Origin: Callorhinchus milii | Taxonomy: Eukaryota | Assembly: GCF_018977255.1 (NCBI RefSeq) | Contig: NW_024704748.1 | Location: 25,978,001-26,042,000 of the forward strand | Direction: 5' to 3' | Length of the DNA stretch: 64,000 nucleotides | Part shown: in pieces, positions 29,701-58,600 of the stretch | How the letters are laid out: each line of letters starts with the position of its first letter | How positions within the stretch are numbered: the first letter of the stretch is position 1 | Notes under the pieces: generated by a model | Seen by the model: only the letters and a program-made list of their open reading frames with translations | Databases searched by the model: none | What the model was told of the DNA's origin: nothing | Program-made: the position numbers and the translations under genes

Positions 29701-32700
29701 TTTGTTGGATTCGTTCATTCTTTCTAATAATAATAATAATCCTTGCACTTGATACAGTGCCTTATCACGTCTTTGCACTGGAAAGCGAATTGACTGTACA
29801 TTTTGTGGGCAAAACGTCTTTCACCAATCATTTTTTGTGTTGCTGATTGAGTAAGGTATACTGTTTGTTCTTTACCACTTGTCTTATTGCAGACTTAAAC
29901 TTAACGAAAAGCCCATCATCACATACGAAGACTTTTACGTGCACTTTAAAGAACAGGAACCTAAAGGATACCCAACGTGGATGGATCCTGTAAAGGGATC
30001 TCAAGAGAACAGAAAGATGAGCGCAACTCAAGTTCATTTGCAACTGAAGGCAATGGTTAGCGAGAGGTATTGTCCAGACGCATTCGAGATACATGACAGA
30101 TCACCGGGGCGGGAATTACAGGTACACGTTTCAGCTACAGGGAGACTCGCTCGATACAGCGGTCAACAGTGAATGTCTGGGGTAAATCTTCAGAAATTGT
30201 AACGATGGAACTGAACAGGAACCGCATTATACCGTAATGTGACACGTCACAGGGCAGCAGGTTGTGCTTTTTGGAAGATGGAAGAAGCCTCTATTTTTCT
30301 CAAGGAAGCCATCAATCCCACTGCTGCGACTCGCTCAACATATCGACTTTGTTTGAATTTCAGGCCGTGGGAACTGAGGGCTCTTTTCAACAAGATGGAA
30401 AATGGCAGAATGCAGCCGCTGGAATTTCAGAAGCTCCTGCACCGGCTCGGAATGGAAACGGAACACGAGGAATTCATGAAACTGTTGAAGCGGTAACTAT
30501 TATTATTGTCAGTATCTGTCATATCAATTCAACAGAGTGGTAATGTAACAATATATAATAATAATCCTTACATTTGTTACAATCGTATAAATAATTCTTG
30601 CATTTGACATAGAGCCTTCGAGACGTCTCAAAGCGCTTCCCAGAATATACTGTAAAGTGAATTGACTGTGTATTTTGTGGGCGAAACGCGACAGCCAATT
30701 GCGCACAGCAGTGTCCCACAAACAGTTGTGGATTAAGTGACCACATTTTTTATTATTATTTTTTAAGGCTTATTAGCCTCAGAAATAATAATCCCTCCAA
30801 AAACAACAAAAAAAACAATAATAAATTGGTCATTTTCAATCTACGACTGTTTGTGGGACATTGCTGTGCGCAATTGGCTGCCACGTTCGCCCACAAATAT
30901 ACAGTCAATTCACTTTACAGTGTGTTCTGTGAAGCGCTTTGGGACGTCCTCCCGACGTGAAAAGCGCTATATCAAATGCAAGCATTATTACTATTATTAG
31001 AAAGCAATCCACCAATCGACTAACAACCGGGTTCCTACTGTACTGCTAGGTAAACGGAGTTAAAGCGCATCACATGTCGGCAGAACGTCTCAAGGTGCTT
31101 CAATTCCTCCGTATTTGTGCCATTATTTCCATCAGTGTGATGAAATACGCATTCTACACGTGCCGACAAGCGCTACACTCGACAGCACCTGTGAGGTGCT
31201 TGGGATGGTCTGACATTAATGGCCCTACATTGAGTATGAGGATTGTTAAACGTTTTTGCTGTTTTAAACTGGTGTCGTTAAACTACACACAGTTCTCCCC
31301 ACACAAAAAAAGCAGAAGAGCTTTTACTCTTTCTCTCATCAGTTGAGCTAAGTTCTGCTGAATTCTTTTTCCTTTCTCGCCGCAGGTATGACCCGGGCAA
31401 TCTTGGTGCTGTGCAAGCTCGGATCCTGATGAGAGCTTTGGGCTTCCAAACTGGAGCTGAGTGTCGGGAAGGATGGAAGTCAGTCCTTTCAGCATCTGGC
31501 AGGATAACAAAAGGTAATGTATCACAAGATGGAGCCAAATGTGCACAGAAGTGTTTCCATATTAGAATTGAGACAGAAAAAAAATCATATACTTCAAAAA
31601 TGTTAGCGTTAGAGACACCAAAATTGTGGCTTACTGGTCCTCCTGTCTTTACTTTCCCCTTCCACGTACGTGCGTGCGCGTGCGTGTGTGTGTGTGTATG
31701 CGAACATGTTTGTGCGTGTATCCGCGCTGTTTTAACGTATGTTAAGATATACCTTGTCGTGCATTCACATTCAGGCTCCTCGAGAAGAAGAAGCTGGACA
31801 AAAGCAGAAATGGAGAGAAAACTGACGCTGGATATCGAAAACTGGCTGAAGGAAAAGTTTAGGGAGGGTTTTAAGCGTATGATGGCAGAATTCTATTCCT
31901 TTGACCAAGATAATTCTCAAATGGTAATGGAGTGCCCCAGGCAGTACAATGAGTATCTAATGATAATAATCCTTGCATTTGATATAGCGCCTTATCACGT
32001 CTTCAAGACGTCTCAAAGCGCTTCGCAGAATATACTGTAAAGTGAATTGACTGTATGTTTTGAGGGCGGTTTTATTAGGAAGGAGCTGTCCGTGTCAAAA
32101 TGTTGCTGAATCGATATCGTCGAGAGTTAAGTACACACTCAGATACTTCTCTAGTTGCTCTGCTGCAGATGCCTGTTAGAGAAGTCCTTCAGTCTGAGCG
32201 AGGAAGAGTCAGAAAGCTCAAAATAAGCCGTGGAAATCTTCCCATGTCGTGAATCCAGCCCTCGCATGAGATATTAAACCGTCAAATGGGCATTAAAAAT
32301 ATAAATTGGCCGCAGCATTTCGGCCACAAAATATACAGTCACTGCACTTTACTGCACTTTACAGTGTATTCTGTGAAGCGCTTTGAGATGTGATAAGGTG
32401 CTATATCAAATGCAAGGATTATTTTTTTTAAAAAAAACACAGTTTGGTGCAAATGGAAAACTCCAAAATGTTACGTTTGTTTGTTTTTTAACCGCCTCAA
32501 TTTGATTGGTTTGGAGTGGAGATATATAACGTCCATGTTTCACATCACTGGGGGAGCCAACGGACTTGATTCCCAGCAGTATAAGCACAGCATAAGATTG
32601 AGGTGCGTGTCAGAGTAATGGAGGAAACCATGTGTCTGATTCACAATATAGTCGAGAGCTCGATCCAGACAAAAGCATCATTCCCAGAAGGTTTTAGAAA

Positions 32701-43602: not shown

Positions 43603-46600
43603 TTACAGCGGTTTCGAATCCGAACAAGACTGTTCAGCCTGAGGAGAGAAAACCATCATTCTAAAGTTACTCACCCTGAACATTATCTGATCACGTCACT
43701 TCCATATTTTATTGATCTTTCGGTAACACATAAAAGAAAAAGCCCAAGCATAGAGAGTTGATGGGCCGAACGGCCTGTGTCTTGTCTAAATTAAGCGCTC
43801 CGAGACGCTGTTCGGTGTGAAGGGCAAGTTGTTCTGTGCTGTAGGGTTCTTCAATTCTATTTGAAAACTTATTACAGTGCATAACATCACCCATTGCTCT
43901 CAAGTGAACAGCTATGACTTAGCCTGAAAGCAAACCAGAGCACGTTCTGGCAACACTTCAAATTCCTTAGACTGATTACTGCATGGTTTGCACAAAGTAG
44001 GGCATGTATGACCACTTCACGCAAGACAAAGCTGGTCATGCCAAAACCTAAGGTTGATGTGCATCGTCTGAAACTAATTGAGACAAATAAAATTTGGTCC
44101 GAAACAAATAAAACATCTAATCTAATCAAAAGAGATCACCGGTGCATAATGTCAATCATCTGGTTGTTCAACAAAACTTCATTGTATGGGAGGAAATGGG
44201 TTGCTCACAGGAACCAAGTAGAATATTCATAAAGGTTAAGAGTCAAGAACTCGAAGCTACTGCATGCAGTGAGTCAACTTGGTTTAACCTCGTCATGTAA
44301 CGTACTCGTGTCTCTAAATAAACAAGCGTGAAAGCCCAGACTTTGAAGAAAAAATTACGTGGAGAAGGAAATGTACTTAAACAGTGTGCTTGAGTCAGGG
44401 CTAGAGGCCGAGGCCGCGTGTGAGGGGAAATGTGTTCTAAACGCTTAATTCAGACCAGTAACATTTTTCACCGTTGCCAATGTATCGTTGATTTTCCACA
44501 CATTCCGTGTGTGGAGGCATGTACGTGCGTTGATAATGTGTATGTATATATTTCTGGACATGTATATGTTTTTACGTGATGGAGGAATTCTTGTATCAAT
44601 ACAATAGTTTTTTTTAAACTGAATTTATTTTTGAATAATTTTTTTTTTAGTAAGGCCCAAATTGGCACAGACCAGGTAAACCAAGTAGCCTCCATCTGTT
44701 GCTCCTTTCCTATGGAGATAAAAACCCTTTAGACGAACGTAGTTTGACAAGGAATATTAATTGAGAAATGTATTGAGTCTCTGGAATAGTATTGCGTGGA
44801 GTCCTGTAGCTCAGTGGTTAGAGCACTCGCTTTGCAAGTGAGAGACCTGAGTTCAATTCCAGGCAGAGGGCGAAACCTTGGGCAAGTTTCCTTACTCCAC
44901 ACAGAGAGCCTAATAATAATCCCTCCAAAAAACCCCAAACAATAATAAATTGGTCATTTTCAATCTACGGCTCTTTGTGGGACATTGCTGTGCGCAATTG
45001 GCTGCCGCGTTCGCCCACAAATATACAGTCAATTCACTTTACAGTGTGTTCTGTGAAGCGCTTTGGGACGTCCTCCAGACGTGAAAAGTGCTATATCAAA
45101 TGCAAGGATTATTATTATTATTATTATTATTACTGGTACGTATCTACCATGTGCCAGTTCGATTTTTCTCATAGACATTCTTACCTTCGGTGAATCTTCA
45201 CAATCGTCAACCAAATCAAGATCGAAATCAGGCAGAGGCATATTCAACCCCTCCTTGTTTCTAAGCCAGTACGTTGTTTGCTTTTCTTTGCCCTTATGAG
45301 GAGTTAAAAAGTGGGTCATATTTCATATAAATTTAAAAATCAGCTTCTAAGGTGGTCAATAAATCACTCCCTTCCAACTCGATTCTCTTATTACTCTCTG
45401 ATGGTGAGATGCAACTGTTTGTGGGACGCTGCTGTGCGCAATTGGCTGCTGCGTTTCGCCCACAAAATACACAGTCACTACACTGTAGAGTGAATCCTGT
45501 GAAGTGCTTTGAGACGTCTCAACGACATGGTAAGGCGCTATATGAAATGCAAGGATTATTATTATTATTATTATTAGTAGTAGTAGTAGTAGTATACCTT
45601 CAATTCAATGATTCCTCGTTTCATCAGTTCATATCCTCCCAGAGCTTTTAGTAGCTGAGCAGTGCTCTCTGATACGTGTATTTTCAGGGCTAGGCATCAA
45701 AAGAAGAGCACAACTAGCAGAGCAAACCTCCCGAAATTATGTTCTGCCATTCTTTCACTGTGTTTTGCTACAGCCAAAAGTGTTGAATAAACACAGCAGA
45801 AGTGTCGTCAAACAAAACTCATTACCCACACGGCACTCACAGCTAAGTTATGTCCTCGGCCACCGGGTTAGTTAACCGTTTCAAACAATTTATGGAAATC
45901 TGGCAAAATGTGGGTCTTTAGCTGTGTTGGACTCGTGGTGGGAGTCAGGAGGACTAATGTAAGCAACCTTTAACTGGCGGCTTTACTGAAAGAGTGGGTA
46001 AAGAGTGACTTTTACACCAGGTTGTTAGAGAACGCAGGAAATCTCTCACAAAAGACACTTAGTATCTGGCGAAACTTCTGCAGCTATTTTGCTGCCAGGG
46101 ACTGCCAGGGTCAAGTGAGTGAAACAACTAGAGACGAGCTTTGACTAACCGTTGAGGAACATTGACTTCATGAACAATGACAGGTTAATGTCTCAAGTAG
46201 AGTAACTGTGGGGTCAAACCCATGCCTCCAAGGGAAAGCAACGCTGGACATTCAGACGAATCGAAGATGAAAAGATTTGACAAGAAGGAAAAAGACTTGA
46301 AACTTACGCAAACCGTTACTCTCCATCCTCGAGGCTACGTTGACAGTGTCTCCAAACAGGCAGTATCTTGGCATAGATGTTCCGACAACTCCGGCAACCA
46401 CTGGGCCTACAAAAAGAGCAAAGGACCAAAGAATGAAGTGTGCGGAGGCCCTGGGATCATTCACTTCCCTCAGCTCCGACCAGCATCTTTCGAATGTGGA
46501 GTTAAGATAATCCTCCCCCAACCTGTAGCGAAAGTTGGGGCATCCACTTGGTGGCAGTTCAAAAGCTGCAGCAACCAGCTACGGGGAAAACCGTTTGAAC

Positions 46601-49600: not shown

Positions 49601-52600
49601 TTTCTATCTATCATCCCCCCACCCCTATCCCCCCACCTTCTCCTCCACAAAAACATGGCTCATTTTCCTGGTAACATTGCAGGAAATCTTTATATGTGAG
49701 GACTATCGAATCCATGTAAAATGTAAAATGTAGGCAACAAAAGTGGAATTGTCTCCTGCAATGTGACTCACAATATTGAGTTTGAGTTTCGATTTGTTTG
49801 CTGTACAGATATACCAAACAGGTTGTTTAATTCATTCACTCAAAACCTATCCTGATCTGCTCGCCTCTTGCTCGCTGTCATGCCTCTTCTATAGTCCTCC
49901 CAGACTGCATGGCGTTGCAAAGTCTGCAAGGTGTCTATGACATAAGAACGCAAGGACATAAGAAAATGTGGACCGAGGCAAGGCCATTACACACATCAAA
50001 CTTTTCAGTCCAAACTATGCCAACTAAAAATTTTACCAAATTCATTTAGTCGTCTGCAGAAAGTTTTTTTTTAAAAAATTTGTTTCTTTGTCCTCTAACT
50101 CTAAATGAATCAAGACTGCATCCTTACATCCCATATCTTGCATCAATCAATGCTTCTTTCTTGGCATACCATTTCAATGAGCCAAGATACACAGAAAACA
50201 TCATGTAGTACGTACCATTCAATACTCTCTCTTGCCTTGTCCGTAGAAGTTCCCTCCATCTCCTTCCTAACCAGATTATCCAGTCAGTTCAGATTTAAAA
50301 GTTAATTATCACAGCACTAAGTCTACATTCAGTATCTGCCCGTTGGCTAAAAACTATTCTTTTAATTGGAAGCTTTTACTTGTTACATCCTCTAGTTGTT
50401 TGCCTCCAATCCAAGTTAAACTAGTTTTTCATTGATGTGGGCTAAGCTCTTTCCCCTTCTGTTTAGTGCATTTTGCAAAATAATTGTCTCTGGACATTGA
50501 CAAATAATGCTGTACTGAAAAATAAGTAACATTAACTTAGAGTTTTATTTTTTTCTTTATCCCTTGAGATTGCTTTGTGGTGCCTTTGCGATTGGAGCGT
50601 GCATGACTGATCATACTGTATAAATATCCCAGCACAGCAGGAGTACACATGCAAGGTACATGTGAGGCCTTTGAGTCATTGGACCCAATGCAGATAAGAT
50701 GTCAGTATAAAGTACTTTGGGGTTCAACTTACAGTTTTCCTCCGACAAACGTGATTGATGCCATCATTTCAAAATACGTCGGAGTTGTAGCTTTTTTTAT
50801 TATACAATGGTGTGGAATTTTTGTTATAAAGAAATAAACTTTTTTTTTACCCTCTGGGTCCATATGTAAGTCATGATAAGGCCCCTGTTCACCATCGTAC
50901 AATAGCTCCTTCATGATGATAGCAAAACTATAAACGTCTCCTTTCTGTGTACCATTGAGTGGGTAGTCATTAAGCCACAACAGTTCTGGAGCGGTCCAGT
51001 ACAGCTCTGCAGGAAGACAAAATATACAGTCAATTCACTTTATAGTGTATTCTGTAAAGCTTTGAGACGTCTTGAAGATGTGAGGAGGCGTTATATCAAA
51101 CGCAAGGATTATTATTATTATTTTAACGTATGTATCTTAGTGTACATTCATTCACATTCAGGCTCCTCGAAAAGAAGCTGAACAAAAGCAGAAAGGGAGA
51201 GAAAACTGACGCTGGATATCGAAAACTAGCTAAGGGTAAAGTTTAGGGAGGGTTGTAAGTGTATGATGACAGAATTCTATTACTTTGACCAAGATAATTC
51301 TCAGATGGTAATTCAGTCGATGCGAACATTCCCTAAACTACTCTCTAAAAATGTTTGAAAGTACATACCTTCAAATGCCATGTTTTCTCCAGTGATTACT
51401 TTCCTTTTTGTTCCAAAGCGAAACTCCCACAAGCCGAATTCTGCTATTTTCACTTGCATCCGACTATCTATCAGGCAGCTCTTGGGTTTTAAGTTACCGT
51501 GAGATTTTAGAGGGCTGTTATGCAGAAACATCATTCCCTAAAATATAACATGTCAACACCATCATCAGTGCACTTTCTCTCGCCTTTTGCTCCAAGACAT
51601 TTCCTGCAAATGATAGTTAATATTCACCATGTGAATCTGTGTATTGTCCTACTGTACATAATTATTAAAATAATAAATTGGTCACTCAATCCATGACTGT
51701 CTGTTGGACACTGCTGTGTGCAATTGGCTGTCGCCTTTCGCCCACAAATATACGGTCATTTCACTTTACAGTATATTCTGTGAAGCGCTTTGAGACGTCG
51801 AGAAGACGTGAAAAGCGCTATATCAAATGCAAGGATTATTATATCATTATGATATCAAATGCAAGGATTATTATTATTGTAAAAAATACAGGGGCCTTTA
51901 CATGAAAGAATGCAAGAAACCATGAGATAAGGAAAGACTCTTTGTTGCATCAATCATTTTGCTGGGAACTGTAGTTCCCATGTATTTTTTAGGGAATGGC
52001 GGGACAGCACTTCCAACAATGTAGTTAAACCCACAACCTTCTGACTCAGAGGCAAGAATACAACTAACTAACTGAGCCAGGTTGACATGGGCTAACAACT
52101 GGGAACAACTGTCAAACAGTGAAATCTGAAAACCTTTCAGGCAGTGGTCTATTGTGAACGGGCAGTTAATGCTCCACATCTCAAATTATAACATGCATTA
52201 ATCACGGTCAAATGTAAAACGATGATTTGATTTGTTTTCTGCGTATGTGTAATGGGTGTATATTGAATGACAAATGATACATGTCGTGGAGAGAAGGGCT
52301 GGTACCGAGCAGAAGTATTTAGTTTGATGGGGTGAATGGCATTACTAGTATGAAGCATGCATCATGTATTTCGAATACAGGGGCAACGATTGATTGATAA
52401 GATATGATAAGATTTTCCCACAACCACAAACCGTAGCCCTCTCTGGGAAGAATAACACAAGAGTGCGTCTCAAGTTAGCAAACAGACTCTAACCAAGCTG
52501 GATTGTCGTAAATCCACACTTTGTCAATGCAGAAGCTGCTGCAGAAACTAATTAACTAATTAACTAATTAATGAATTAATTAATTAATATTAAGACAGAT

Positions 52601-55600: not shown

Positions 55601-58600
55601 CAGCTGATCAGGCGAGACCATGACCAAGATATGTATACCGACTCACCAACAAGTAATACCAGGGCTACAATTCCACACAGATCAACTCTCTGATCGTTGG
55701 ATTTCAGTGCGCACAGAATTTGGCAAATTCTGAAATGCAACCTTAATTTTGTGGCCAGGTCTCTGTAAGTTCTTTTACTTCATTGCAACAAATAACAAAA
55801 AAAAATGTGCCTTGTGAAACTGAGGATAGGCTGCACCCACATTGCTATTGAATCATACTTTAATCACTAACACATATCCGTTCCACATATCAGTTTGATT
55901 AGATCTTATCACATACTACAAAATCTGCTATTTGTGCAACACGCCCATTCCATCATCGTTTCTGTTTAATTGCAGCCTTCAAGATTACAACATGTCAGGA
56001 ATAGAAGTTCCAGCTGGTTCTAAATTTACTCTATTAACATAACATTTCAGAGTGTGCAGAATCTGGCTTATTGTTGTGTTCAGTTTGAGCCTTGAAGTTG
56101 GCTTTCTGTAGTTCTTCTGTCAAATGCAAAGAGTGTTACTTATTGATTGATGGCTTTGGTGGAAATAATAGGGGATTATGTACTTGTCCAACAGTGAGTG
56201 TTTATCAGATTCCTGGCTGTGTGAATCTGGCAAGTTCTTATCCCCCAACCTAACTGAAAGGACATTAGCTCTCATTAACATGGGGGAATGCGACTCAATG
56301 AAATACCTACTTGTGGAGCTGCTTTTGCAAAGCTCATTGTGAAATCCACAATTGGGTCTGTCTTTAAAAGGAGTGCCAGCTGGCCACGATATGTGAGCAA
56401 ATTGACCTGTGGACCTGCAACAACAAAAAATTATTATTGTTTAAAAATGACAATAAGTACTCGGACCTCTATGGCTCATTCTATACACCTGACTTCACCT
56501 ACGCTGCTTTGCGGCAACAAATCATTGTCCTGTACATCATGTATTCGTGTTTGAAAAGTATGGAAACTATGATCTGAGCAGGTCAGCTGAGGAGATCCAT
56601 TGGCTGATGGTATCAGTTTTGGTTCAGTGGGAAAGAATATAACAGTTACAATATTCTTCAATAGGTTTCAAGACTGAACAACACACAGCAATGCTCCACA
56701 TTGGTTGTTGCTCTTCTGTGCTTTTTGCTATTCTTCAAACAAAGAATATGTTATTTGAAGCCCTACCCGTTAGGGTTTTGGTTTGCAGGGTACAAGGGGC
56801 TGAGTGGGATGATCTCTGCCCCCAGTGACTTAGACTGAACAACCTACCTTACTGATTGATTGTAGCTGTTGTAATAAAGCACAGGAACAAATTTTGTCTC
56901 GTTTCCGTCCTGCTGCAGGTCGTATACAGAATAATCCATAGACCTTTCTCCAGAATTATCAATATCCACCAGACCAATTGCACCTGATAAAATAGGAAGG
57001 CTTGAGTTATTGCTCTGAACTCCTTTTGGAATCTATATTGCTGCAAAAGAGGAATGTTCTTTTCATATACACGTTAACTATATACCTCAAACAACACTCT
57101 TAGACATAAGAGAATGTTCAATTCTCTAATCTTCTCAATTTTGTATAGTCTGATGAGATTTTGTGTACTCTGCTATTTTGCAATTGGAGAATTGGAGCAT
57201 TTCTCATCTTACCATAAAATTGGGTTCTATTGTAACCTTTCAAGCTCTTAATAAGAGCTCTTCCGTCCCGAGGGTTCTTTCCTGCCATTATCATTTTGTG
57301 CGCAGTAATGGCGTACAGCATCACTGCATCATGAAGATAAATTGAATAATCGCTCACCTGCAATACACCACAGAACCCTCAGGTTAAAGTCACGCAGGAA
57401 GTCACACAGAACACCGTCTCTTTCACTGTCCACTATCTTTTCTCTTTTCTTCCTCCAAATTGGCTGAACACTAAACCTAATTTGCATGATTTTTATCCAG
57501 GGCTCTGCTACTCAAAAGTTTGAGCTCCACCCTTTGGAACTCCATTCCACAGTCCTTTCGCCTCACTCCCTCCATTGCTTCTTTCAAGGCATGTCTCAAG
57601 ACCCTTCTCTTCGACCTCACCTTCGGTCACCCTCCTGTGGAGTCCTGTAGCTCAGTGGTTAGAGCACTCGCTTTGCAAGTGAGAGACCTGAGTTCAATTC
57701 CCGGCAGGTCAGGGCGAAACCTTGGGCAAGTTTCCTTACTCCACACAGAGCCTAATAATAATCCCTCCAAAACCAAAAACAATAATAAATTGGTCATTTT
57801 CAATCTACGACTGTTTGTGGGACATTGCTGTGCGCAATTGGCTGCCGCGTTCGCCCACAAATATACAGTCAATTCACTTTACAGTGTGTTCTGTGAAGCG
57901 CTTTGGGACGTCCTCCTGACGTGAAAAGCGCAATATCAAATGCAAGGATTATTATTATTATTATTATTACCCCTACCCTCCCTGCCCTCCACCCTCCCTG
58001 ATCTCAATCCCCTGCTCGGGTCCTAATCCCTGATAGTTCAGTGCCTTGGGATGTCCTCACAACACGAAAGGTGTTATACAAACATAATTTGTAGTTGTTG
58101 TTGCTGCACATCTTTCTAGGTAATGCTTCCCTCATTCTTGTCCTGGAAAAATTCATGACCATATTTTACCCTATTGCTTATTGCCTCATTTTGTGCAAAT
58201 TATTTTCTTCCAATGAGTTTTATTCCAGTAAAAGTGAATTAATTCTGATGATTTCTCTTTTAACAAAAAATACAACAGAATAATTCTGGTTTAACATGGT
58301 AAAATAACTCATCTCTGCCTTGCATTTTGATAATCCTTGCATTTGATATAGGGCCTTGTCATGTCTTCGAGCCGTCTCAAAGCGCATCACAGAAAATAGT
58401 GTAAAGGGAATTGACTGTGTATTTCGGGGAGCAATTTTTTTTATTATTTTGAAAGGATTATTACTCCCGGAAAAGCGATCCGCCCATTGACTAACAATCG
58501 GGTTCCTACTTACTGCTTGGTAAATAGAGGTGTGGGGCGTAAGGAAAGTTATCCAATGTTTCTTAAACATAGATAAGCTGCAATAGCAAACCTCTTTCTC

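What the first reader, a model, noticed from the sequence alone, without database searches (positions are those of the whole stretch)
51121..51312. Exon of the EFCAB6-like gene copied 19 kb away into an intron of the neighbouring guanylyl cyclase gene
Seen: 51121-51312 duplicates 31730-31928, i.e. exon 8 with ~45 nt of upstream intron, its CAG acceptor and its GTAAT donor. Identity is about 92%, with a 3-nt deletion and two nonsense changes (TGG>TGA, TGG>TAG). The copy starts immediately after the (TTA)n tail of a SINE fragment (51020-51122). Together they fill most of the 362-nt GUCY2G intron 13, antisense to the host. Inference: because intron sequence was copied, this is not a processed mRNA retrocopy. 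It is more likely a DNA- or pre-mRNA-templated insertion, for example template switching during SINE/L2 reverse transcription or repair-associated copying. That would be a snapshot of local exon shuffling.
Basis: partly seen in the sequence, partly recalled or inferred. Interest (0 to 1): 0.7.

Follow-up and report, generated by a model that had tools for sequence, protein, structure and literature searches.

The report
Dead exon copy in neighbour's intron
In the elephant shark, one exon of a calcium-binding-protein gene sits copied, with two stop codons, in an intron of the neighbouring gene 19 kb away; it is likely an old scar of DNA-break repair, a known kind of accident, and a probable RNA assembly shows the host intron still spliced out exactly.

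Summary
Real, but ordinary. 51121-51313 copies EFCAB6-like exon 8 with both splice sites (91% identical; two hits genome-wide) into GUCY2G intron 13 of Callorhinchus milii. Contigs from two runs cover its junctions. A related species dates and orients it. The copy branch carries 8 changes in 101 sites (7 nonsynonymous or nonsense), roughly 80 My (34-160). The '3-nt deletion' is more likely an insertion in the source. One RNA-like contig splices intron 13 exactly. A missed feature: 20 of the 26 bases after the copy are two exact 10-mers of the donor, one from each strand (1 of 5000 controls). Filler, no target-site duplication and no poly(A) fit a repair-mediated duplication. SINE tails are not enriched at 26 other local duplications (1 of 52 members). 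Open point: the donor has its own antisense SINE fragment 29 nt after the exon, so SINE plus exon could be one inverted, twin-priming-like event (about 1 in 4). Sequence cannot decide. No sign of exon shuffling. The scan has noted this kind before, in this genome and others.

The parts
51007..51368 (-). GUCY2G intron 13 (362 nt), host of the insertion
   Evidence: exon map of P0016; spliced out exactly in an X5 contig
51017..51122 (+). 3' fragment (~106 nt) of a tRNA-Ala-headed SINE with (ATT)5 tail; in host sense it supplies a branch-point-like TTGAC at -27 and part of the pyrimidine tract
   Evidence: branch-point use is inferred
51121..51161 (+). copy of the last ~45 nt of EFCAB6-like intron 7 with CAG acceptor; 2-nt TT overlap with the SINE tail
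   Evidence: the middle resembles organism D's intron more than today's source does (local score 20 vs 10)
51162..51307 (+). dead copy of EFCAB6-like exon 8 (146 nt), stops at 51179 and 51227
51308..51313 (+). copied splice donor GTAAT(T)
   Evidence: organism D's contig aligns through 51313
51314..51339 (.). junction filler: 51320-51329 equals 31698-31707; 51330-51339 is the reverse complement of 31856-31865
51340..51368 (-). ancestral 5' end of GUCY2G intron 13
   Evidence: loose ends of X8, X10 and X15 contigs resemble it by eye
31775..31923 (+). donor: coding exon 8 of the EFCAB6-like gene (149 nt, open frame)
   Evidence: 100% to P0001 residues 337-387
31698..31774 (+). donor intron end (31730-31774) and source of the first filler 10-mer (31698-31707)
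31958..32068 (-). donor-side SINE 3' fragment, 29 nt after the copied segment, starting within ~5 nt of where the copy's SINE starts
51369..51537 (-). GUCY2G coding exon 13
50852..51006 (-). GUCY2G coding exon 14

Best explanation
A 193-base copy of EFCAB6-like exon 8 with its splice sites lies, broken by two stops, in GUCY2G intron 13; it is likely a patch made when a germ-line DNA break was repaired by copying from the neighbouring gene. Shown: two copies only, unspliced donor, filler made of donor pieces from both strands, no poly(A), no target-site duplication, neutral decay. Inferred: a broken end primed on the donor 19 kb away, copied 31730-31929, hopped twice for 10 bases each and was joined back to the intron (SDSA/MMBIR or polymerase-theta-type synthesis; DNA template likely, nascent RNA not excluded). 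Inferred and weakest: the SINE fragment is a separate L2-driven insertion of about the same age, present before the break or added at the TTTT junction afterwards.
For: Two genome hits. Intron on both sides of the exon. Filler: 20 of 26 bases covered by exact donor matches of 8 nt or more. Controls reaching that: 1 of 5000 (26-nt windows), 6 of 5000 (40 nt), 32 of 5000 (56 nt) with a donor free of SINE and microsatellite; 11 of 6000 with the wider donor. No poly(A) signal or tract; the only 6-nt flank match is not at the insert ends. Against organism D, the copy branch has 8 changes in 101 sites (1 synonymous, 7 not) and source versus D has 6 synonymous and 3 not; Fisher p=0.050. Such copies are common here: 27 two-copy local matches in 1.464 Mb, median 118 nt, 21 within 5 kb. 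The two SINE fragments share only one derived base, a CpG change in 19% of copies, and 168 of 266 other copies share at least one. Starting points near this one are common: 80 of 783 within 6 nt.
Against: The empty site was not seen, so deletion and microhomology at the target are untested. The filler window was chosen after looking, and one 10-mer could be a fold-back on the copy itself. At 19 kb it falls outside the 5-kb class that Pace et al. call confidently repair-mediated. Both donor and copy have a SINE tail within 35 nt: about 0.02 squared per pair, about 1% over 27 pairs (my arithmetic), which argues that the SINE is not independent. The polarity rests on one contig of one relative.
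Confidence: 0.47

Rival explanations
1. One event copied everything from one 370-base donor stretch: the donor's SINE (32062 to 31958) backwards, then 31730-31929 forwards, then the two 10-mers. Read from the minus strand this is inverted 5' part plus colinear 3' part with a 29-nt gap, the layout of twin priming, in which both break ends prime on the same (sense) strand. It could be DNA template switching or reverse transcription of unspliced pre-mRNA.
For: A tail lies within 35 nt of both members, against 1 of 52 members in 26 other pairs. The copy's SINE is nested in the donor's and starts within ~5 nt of it. The donor SINE ranks 5th of 261 in identity to the copy's SINE. The tail run is equally long up to the switch point. 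The filler already shows switching between both strands. Internal deletions at the inversion point are typical of twin priming (10.1101/2024.08.27.596794, passages).
Against: No private shared variant. Private changes are 2 (donor) against 8 plus a 2-nt deletion (copy), one-sided p=0.03-0.05. The rank of 5th follows from the donor SINE being close to the family majority (3 of 98; 3 of 238 copies are that close). The piece would have to begin and end exactly at SINE boundaries. No poly(A) or tail at the first priming end. 5' inversion was seen only with human L1 in PMC4245944 (passage). Organism D's 30 loose bases after the exon are not a significant SINE tail (1684 of 20000 controls score as well).
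Confidence: 0.27
2. The SINE piece came from SINE RNA or cDNA in the same event: synthesis began on the exon template at the right end and jumped to the 3' tail of a SINE transcript, or a SINE cDNA was captured at the other break end.
For: It explains an intact tail exactly at the junction (2-nt TT overlap) and a usual 5' starting point. SINE and exon copy are of similar age (9 of 96 and 8 of 101 changes). Two-donor repair patches exist (20 of 1,136; PMC2671141).
Against: Known chimeras put the foreign sequence 5' of the element. No enrichment of tails at other local copies. It leaves the donor-side SINE a coincidence. The opposite-strand filler needs a DNA or cDNA template.
Confidence: 0.2
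3. The copy is or was a working exon, for read-through EFCAB6-like transcripts or as an antisense regulator.
For: Acceptor, donor and a branch-like TTAAC are intact in the assembly.
Against: Two stops; neutral substitution pattern. It lies 13 kb past the last EFCAB6-like coding exon and antisense to the host. An X4 contig (depth 5.6) lacks 5 nt at the acceptor.
Confidence: 0.03
4. Assembly artefact or member of a repeat family.
For: No single contig spans the SINE; X1 may be the assembly's own sample.
Against: 9% divergence from the donor. All three junctions occur in contigs of two runs, and X4 differs from the assembly at several sites. Two hits genome-wide. The spliced contig fixes both intron ends.
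Confidence: 0.01

Closest known systems
Repair-mediated duplications (RDs), Pace, Sen, Batzer and Feschotte 2009, PMC2671141 (parts 1-3 of 8 and passages read; supplements not opened)
   Same: Two copies on one chromosome, 50-619 bp, filler, no poly(A); whole exons with flanking intron copied and decaying neutrally (ACSBG2 exon 7, C17orf57 exon 20); two-donor patches occur; also found in zebrafish.
   Different: Distance 19 kb, outside their 5-kb class; beside rather than inside a transposon; lands in a different gene; empty site not seen here; no chondrichthyan among their species.
Class 2 templated sequence insertions (TSI/TSIP), Onozawa and Aplan 2016, PMC5110952 (parts 1-2 of 4 read)
   Same: Patch from elsewhere with intact donor, no target-site duplication, no poly(A) or signal; size near their 191-bp median; RNA or DNA template left open.
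   Different: Their donors are distant and the insertions polymorphic; this one is local, old and present in both conspecific DNA-like runs laid.
MMBIR-linked templated insertions (MMB-TI), PMC8421209 (passages read)
   Same: Short pieces copied by repeated template switches, including inverted ones, accumulating in the germ line.
   Different: Their templates lie within 100 bp of the insertion; only the inverted 10-mer (80 nt away, in the copy) fits that; junction microhomology is 0-2 nt or untestable here.
LINE chimeras and twin priming (10.1101/2025.02.02.635956; 10.1101/2024.08.27.596794; PMC4245944; passages read)
   Same: SINE and exon are in the same sense, as in template switching; donor-relative layout equals a twin-priming inversion if the SINE is the donor's.
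   Different: The element's tail is internal, not at the target; no poly(A) or target-site duplication; foreign sequence is 3' of the element.
CmiSINEs (SINE2-1_CM, SINE2B-1_CM) and SacSINE1-CM, PMC5499810 (part 2 of 6 and a word search read)
   Same: tRNA-Ala head on full-length relatives in the window, high copy number, about 10-12% divergence.
   Different: Not compared with Repbase sequence; the paper says the 3' ~160 bp is shared between the families, so a 106-nt fragment cannot be assigned to one.

Membership tests
Repair-mediated duplication (Pace 2009) | Insertion of 50 bp or more found at exactly one other place | tested here: met
   2 matches in the assembly
Repair-mediated duplication (Pace 2009) | Donor within 5 kb (their confident class) | tested here: not met
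   19.2 kb; belongs to their 'distant' bin
Repair-mediated duplication (Pace 2009) | Filler, deletion or microhomology at breakpoints | tested here: inconclusive
   Filler-like 26 nt with donor-derived pieces and 2-nt overlap on the left; deletion and target microhomology need the empty site, not seen
Repair-mediated duplication (Pace 2009) | No poly(A)/poly(T) tail | tested here: met
Class 2 TSI | No target-site duplication, poly(A) signal or tract; donor intact | tested here: met
   an 80-My-old duplication could have decayed
Class 2 TSI | RNA-derived template | not testable with these tools
   All donor pieces lie in the pre-mRNA, but one is from the opposite strand; strand skew of G>A changes not significant (p=0.31 and 0.14)
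Processed retrocopy / class 1 TSI | Spliced sequence or poly(A) with target-site duplication | tested here: not met
   intron on both sides, no tail
LINE/SINE template-switch chimera | Foreign sequence 5' of the element, element tail at the target | tested here: not met
   order is SINE tail then exon (papers)
SINE 3' transduction | Element followed by its own 3' flank, colinear | tested here: not met
   the donor SINE's 3' flank is the antisense exon; the copy is sense
Twin-priming inversion | Inverted 5' part joined to colinear 3' part of one template, small internal gap | tested here: inconclusive
   geometry fits with a 29-nt gap, but descent of the SINE piece from the donor SINE is not shown
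Twin-priming inversion | Poly(A) primed end, endonuclease site, target-site duplication | tested here: not met
CmiSINE / SacSINE1-CM | tRNA-Ala head on full-length copies | tested here: met
   6 tRNA-Ala calls in the window, at SINE positions; Rfam tRNA hit on the reference copy
CmiSINE / SacSINE1-CM | CORE domain and L2-2_CM tail identity | not tested
   no Repbase sequence at hand

The most novel reading that the evidence does not exclude
The whole ~320-base insert is one twin-priming-like event outside L1: both ends of a break primed on the same sense strand of the unspliced EFCAB6-like transcript, copying the donor's SINE backwards and the exon forwards. It would be a fossil of RNA-templated break repair in cis, 19 kb away, that also handed the host intron a new branch point.
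Probability: 0.1. Interest if true: 0.55.

Novelty: new member of a known kind. Interest (0 to 1): 0.22.

Why it matters
As best read it matters little: one more repair-type local duplication, of a kind catalogued in primates, chicken and zebrafish, and common on this chromosome (27 candidates in 1.46 Mb). It has small value as a fossil, since it likely keeps the older form of the donor exon and intron, and as a case where a SINE fragment appears to supply a host splice signal without harm. It would matter more if orthologues showed SINE and exon arriving together from the donor, as a dated example of same-strand double priming without L1 marks.

Tried and rejected
Organism D's loose end after the exon looked like an antisense SINE tail (donor SINE ancestral). 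Rejected: profile score -2.8, reached by 1684 of 20000 controls and below all but 1 of 232 true tails. Shared SINE start as proof of common origin: rejected, 80 of 783 start within 6 nt. G>A strand skew as a cDNA-editing mark: not significant. Target-site duplication: none at the ends, but this family rarely shows one (9 of 152 with 7 nt or more, 3% in shuffled pairs), so absence says little about the SINE. 3' transduction and classic chimera: wrong geometry. No RNA holder was listed on record. X5 has no contig on the copy or on the donor exon, which is no evidence on expression. Relatives X8, X10, X15 have no contig across 51314-51361, and X10 and X15 contigs leave with 99 and 138 unlike bases; this suggests absence but no contig was seen joining across the site. 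One search's tables were swamped by SINE contigs and cut. One search's line '6 of 66' was a counting error (pairs, not members, and mostly one large inversion); recounted after dropping 6 pieces of that inversion and this pair. Paper searches: 'Callorhinchus' with 'gucy2g' gave 0; 'repair-mediated duplication' appeared only in PMC2671141 among the 10 listed. Subscription papers and supplements were not searched. The scan's notes had nothing at this place.

Full report
Observation. 51149-51312 matches 31762-31928 at 152/167 with one 3-nt gap, and 51121-51133 equals 31730-31742. The assembly (991.5 Mb) gives two matches only. The donor is coding exon 8 (31775-31923) of an EFCAB6-like gene, 100% identical to a Callorhinchus milii protein. 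The host is GUCY2G intron 13, 51007-51368, minus strand. The copy keeps acceptor and donor and has stops at 51179 and 51227. A SINE 3' fragment fills 51017-51122. Full-length relatives have a tRNA-Ala head, which fits the CmiSINEs of PMC5499810 (part 2 read); the family was not checked against Repbase.

Reality and host splicing. Contigs of two conspecific runs from one study cover all three junctions, though none spans the SINE. X4 differs from the assembly, including a 5-nt loss at the copied acceptor in one contig of depth 5.6. One contig of X5 (RNA by guess, depth 4) joins 51369 to 50977-51006, so the intron is removed exactly.

Direction and age. Organism D (X15; coded, probably another holocephalan, inferred from ~92% exon identity and the shared SINE) has one contig on the copy, 163 bases, 25 differences, no gap; I take it as D's donor exon. 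In the 101 sites at least 31 nt from its ends, D sides with the source at 8 of 9 copy/source differences and with the copy at 1. The copy-branch changes are 1 synonymous and 7 not; source versus D are 6 and 3 (p=0.050). The copy therefore decayed neutrally. D's ungapped match, and six residues rather than seven before the conserved T in shark and ray proteins (read by eye), make the 3-nt gap a likely insertion in the source. D's intron also resembles the copy more than today's source (score 20 vs 10), so the mismatch in the copied intron likely arose in the source. At the rate in PMC5499810 (about 1.05e-3 per site per My, itself an assumption; that paper's other rate gives far older dates) the copy is about 80 My old, range 34-160. 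Chimaera and Callorhinchus split about 187 Ma (PMC12952989, passage). Contigs of X8, X10 and X15 leave the stretch near 51362-51366 with bases resembling 51340-51365, so that part is old intron; none was seen on the insert site, and the empty site itself was not seen.

Junctions. Between the copy and the old intron lie 26 bases; 51320-51329 equals donor 31698-31707 and 51330-51339 is the reverse complement of 31856-31865. Controls reach this coverage in 1 of 5000 26-mers, 6 of 5000 40-mers and 32 of 5000 56-mers. There is no poly(A), no signal and no target-site duplication at the ends. These are the marks listed for repair-mediated duplications (PMC2671141) and class 2 templated insertions (PMC5110952); multi-piece inserts from both strands are described for MMB-TIs (PMC8421209, passages).

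Background. In 1.464 Mb around the window there are 33 two-copy matches 50 bp-50 kb apart; 6 belong to one large inversion, leaving 27, median 118 nt, 21 within 5 kb. Their two-copy status was tested only in that stretch. Local copying is thus common, and the scan's earlier notes report similar scars in this genome and others (unchecked AI notes).

The SINE. Of 52 members of the 26 other pairs, 1 has a tail within 35 nt, against 413 of 20000 random segments, so tail fusion is not a general habit. In this pair both members have one, because the donor has an antisense fragment at 31958-32068. SINE backwards plus exon forwards, with a 29-nt gap, is the layout of a twin-priming inversion (10.1101/2024.08.27.596794, passages) or of one more DNA template switch. 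Descent is not shown: the fragments share one CpG change found in 19% of copies, private changes are 2 against 8 plus a deletion (p=0.03-0.05), and similar start points are common. The donor fragment is unusually close to the majority under either reading (3 of 238). My odds, by judgement and not from a call: separate SINE 0.47, co-copied donor SINE 0.27, SINE RNA or cDNA captured in the same event 0.2. The first two share the core claim of repair synthesis from the local donor.

Verdict. A real, old, dead exon copy; a new member of a known kind. It works like a repair-mediated duplication but lies outside the 5-kb class and lacks a seen empty site. No evidence of exon shuffling. I found no paper on this locus (open-access library only; supplements not opened). 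Interest 0.22.

Noticed in passing
window 51538-51606 (-): The X5 contig joins GUCY2G exon 12 to an upstream acceptor at 51604, adding 66 nt with an in-frame TGA after 12 codons (my reading of the sequence); one contig, depth 4.
   Followed up: partly
window 51007-51040 (-): The host 3' splice site leans on the SINE: a branch-point-like TTGAC at -27 and part of the pyrimidine tract are SINE bases.
   Followed up: partly
window 51007-51032: An organism C contig aligns 16 nt into the SINE's start and then goes on for 219 unlike bases. Either old target homology to the SINE or a remnant of an older insertion; the bases were not shown.
   Followed up: no
L128-L130 (G000:C7:26694030-26713173): A young inverted duplication, six unmasked pieces at 96.6-100% identity, arms about 7 kb with a 5-kb spacer; could also be an assembly feature.
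   Followed up: no
window 31743-31761 and 31929-31957: The donor's introns appear to have changed after the copy was made: a short in-place inversion upstream, and a 29-nt spacer unlike organism D's bases downstream.
   Followed up: partly
window 51629-51853: Organism D has an antisense SINE-like tail right after 51629, where this genome has a sense SINE at 51658-51853: apparently independent insertions within 30 nt.
   Followed up: no
SINE copies in 664 kb: 5' starts of 331 tail-bearing copies peak at reference positions 200-209 (61) and 270-279 (52); may mark the boundary shared with SacSINE1-CM and the L2 tail.
   Followed up: no
window 12389-12665, 16433-16703, 44846-45122, 57687-57962: A closely related SINE subgroup (93-96% identical to each other) clustered in this window.
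   Followed up: no
window 31387-31923: The predicted C. milii protein lacks about 10 residues at the exon 7-8 joint that most sharks and rays have, and reads NSQMV where they read NSGKV in an EF-hand-like loop.
   Followed up: no
window 17937-21294 (+): Exons of a peroxiredoxin-like gene (name recalled from the translations, not searched).
   Followed up: no
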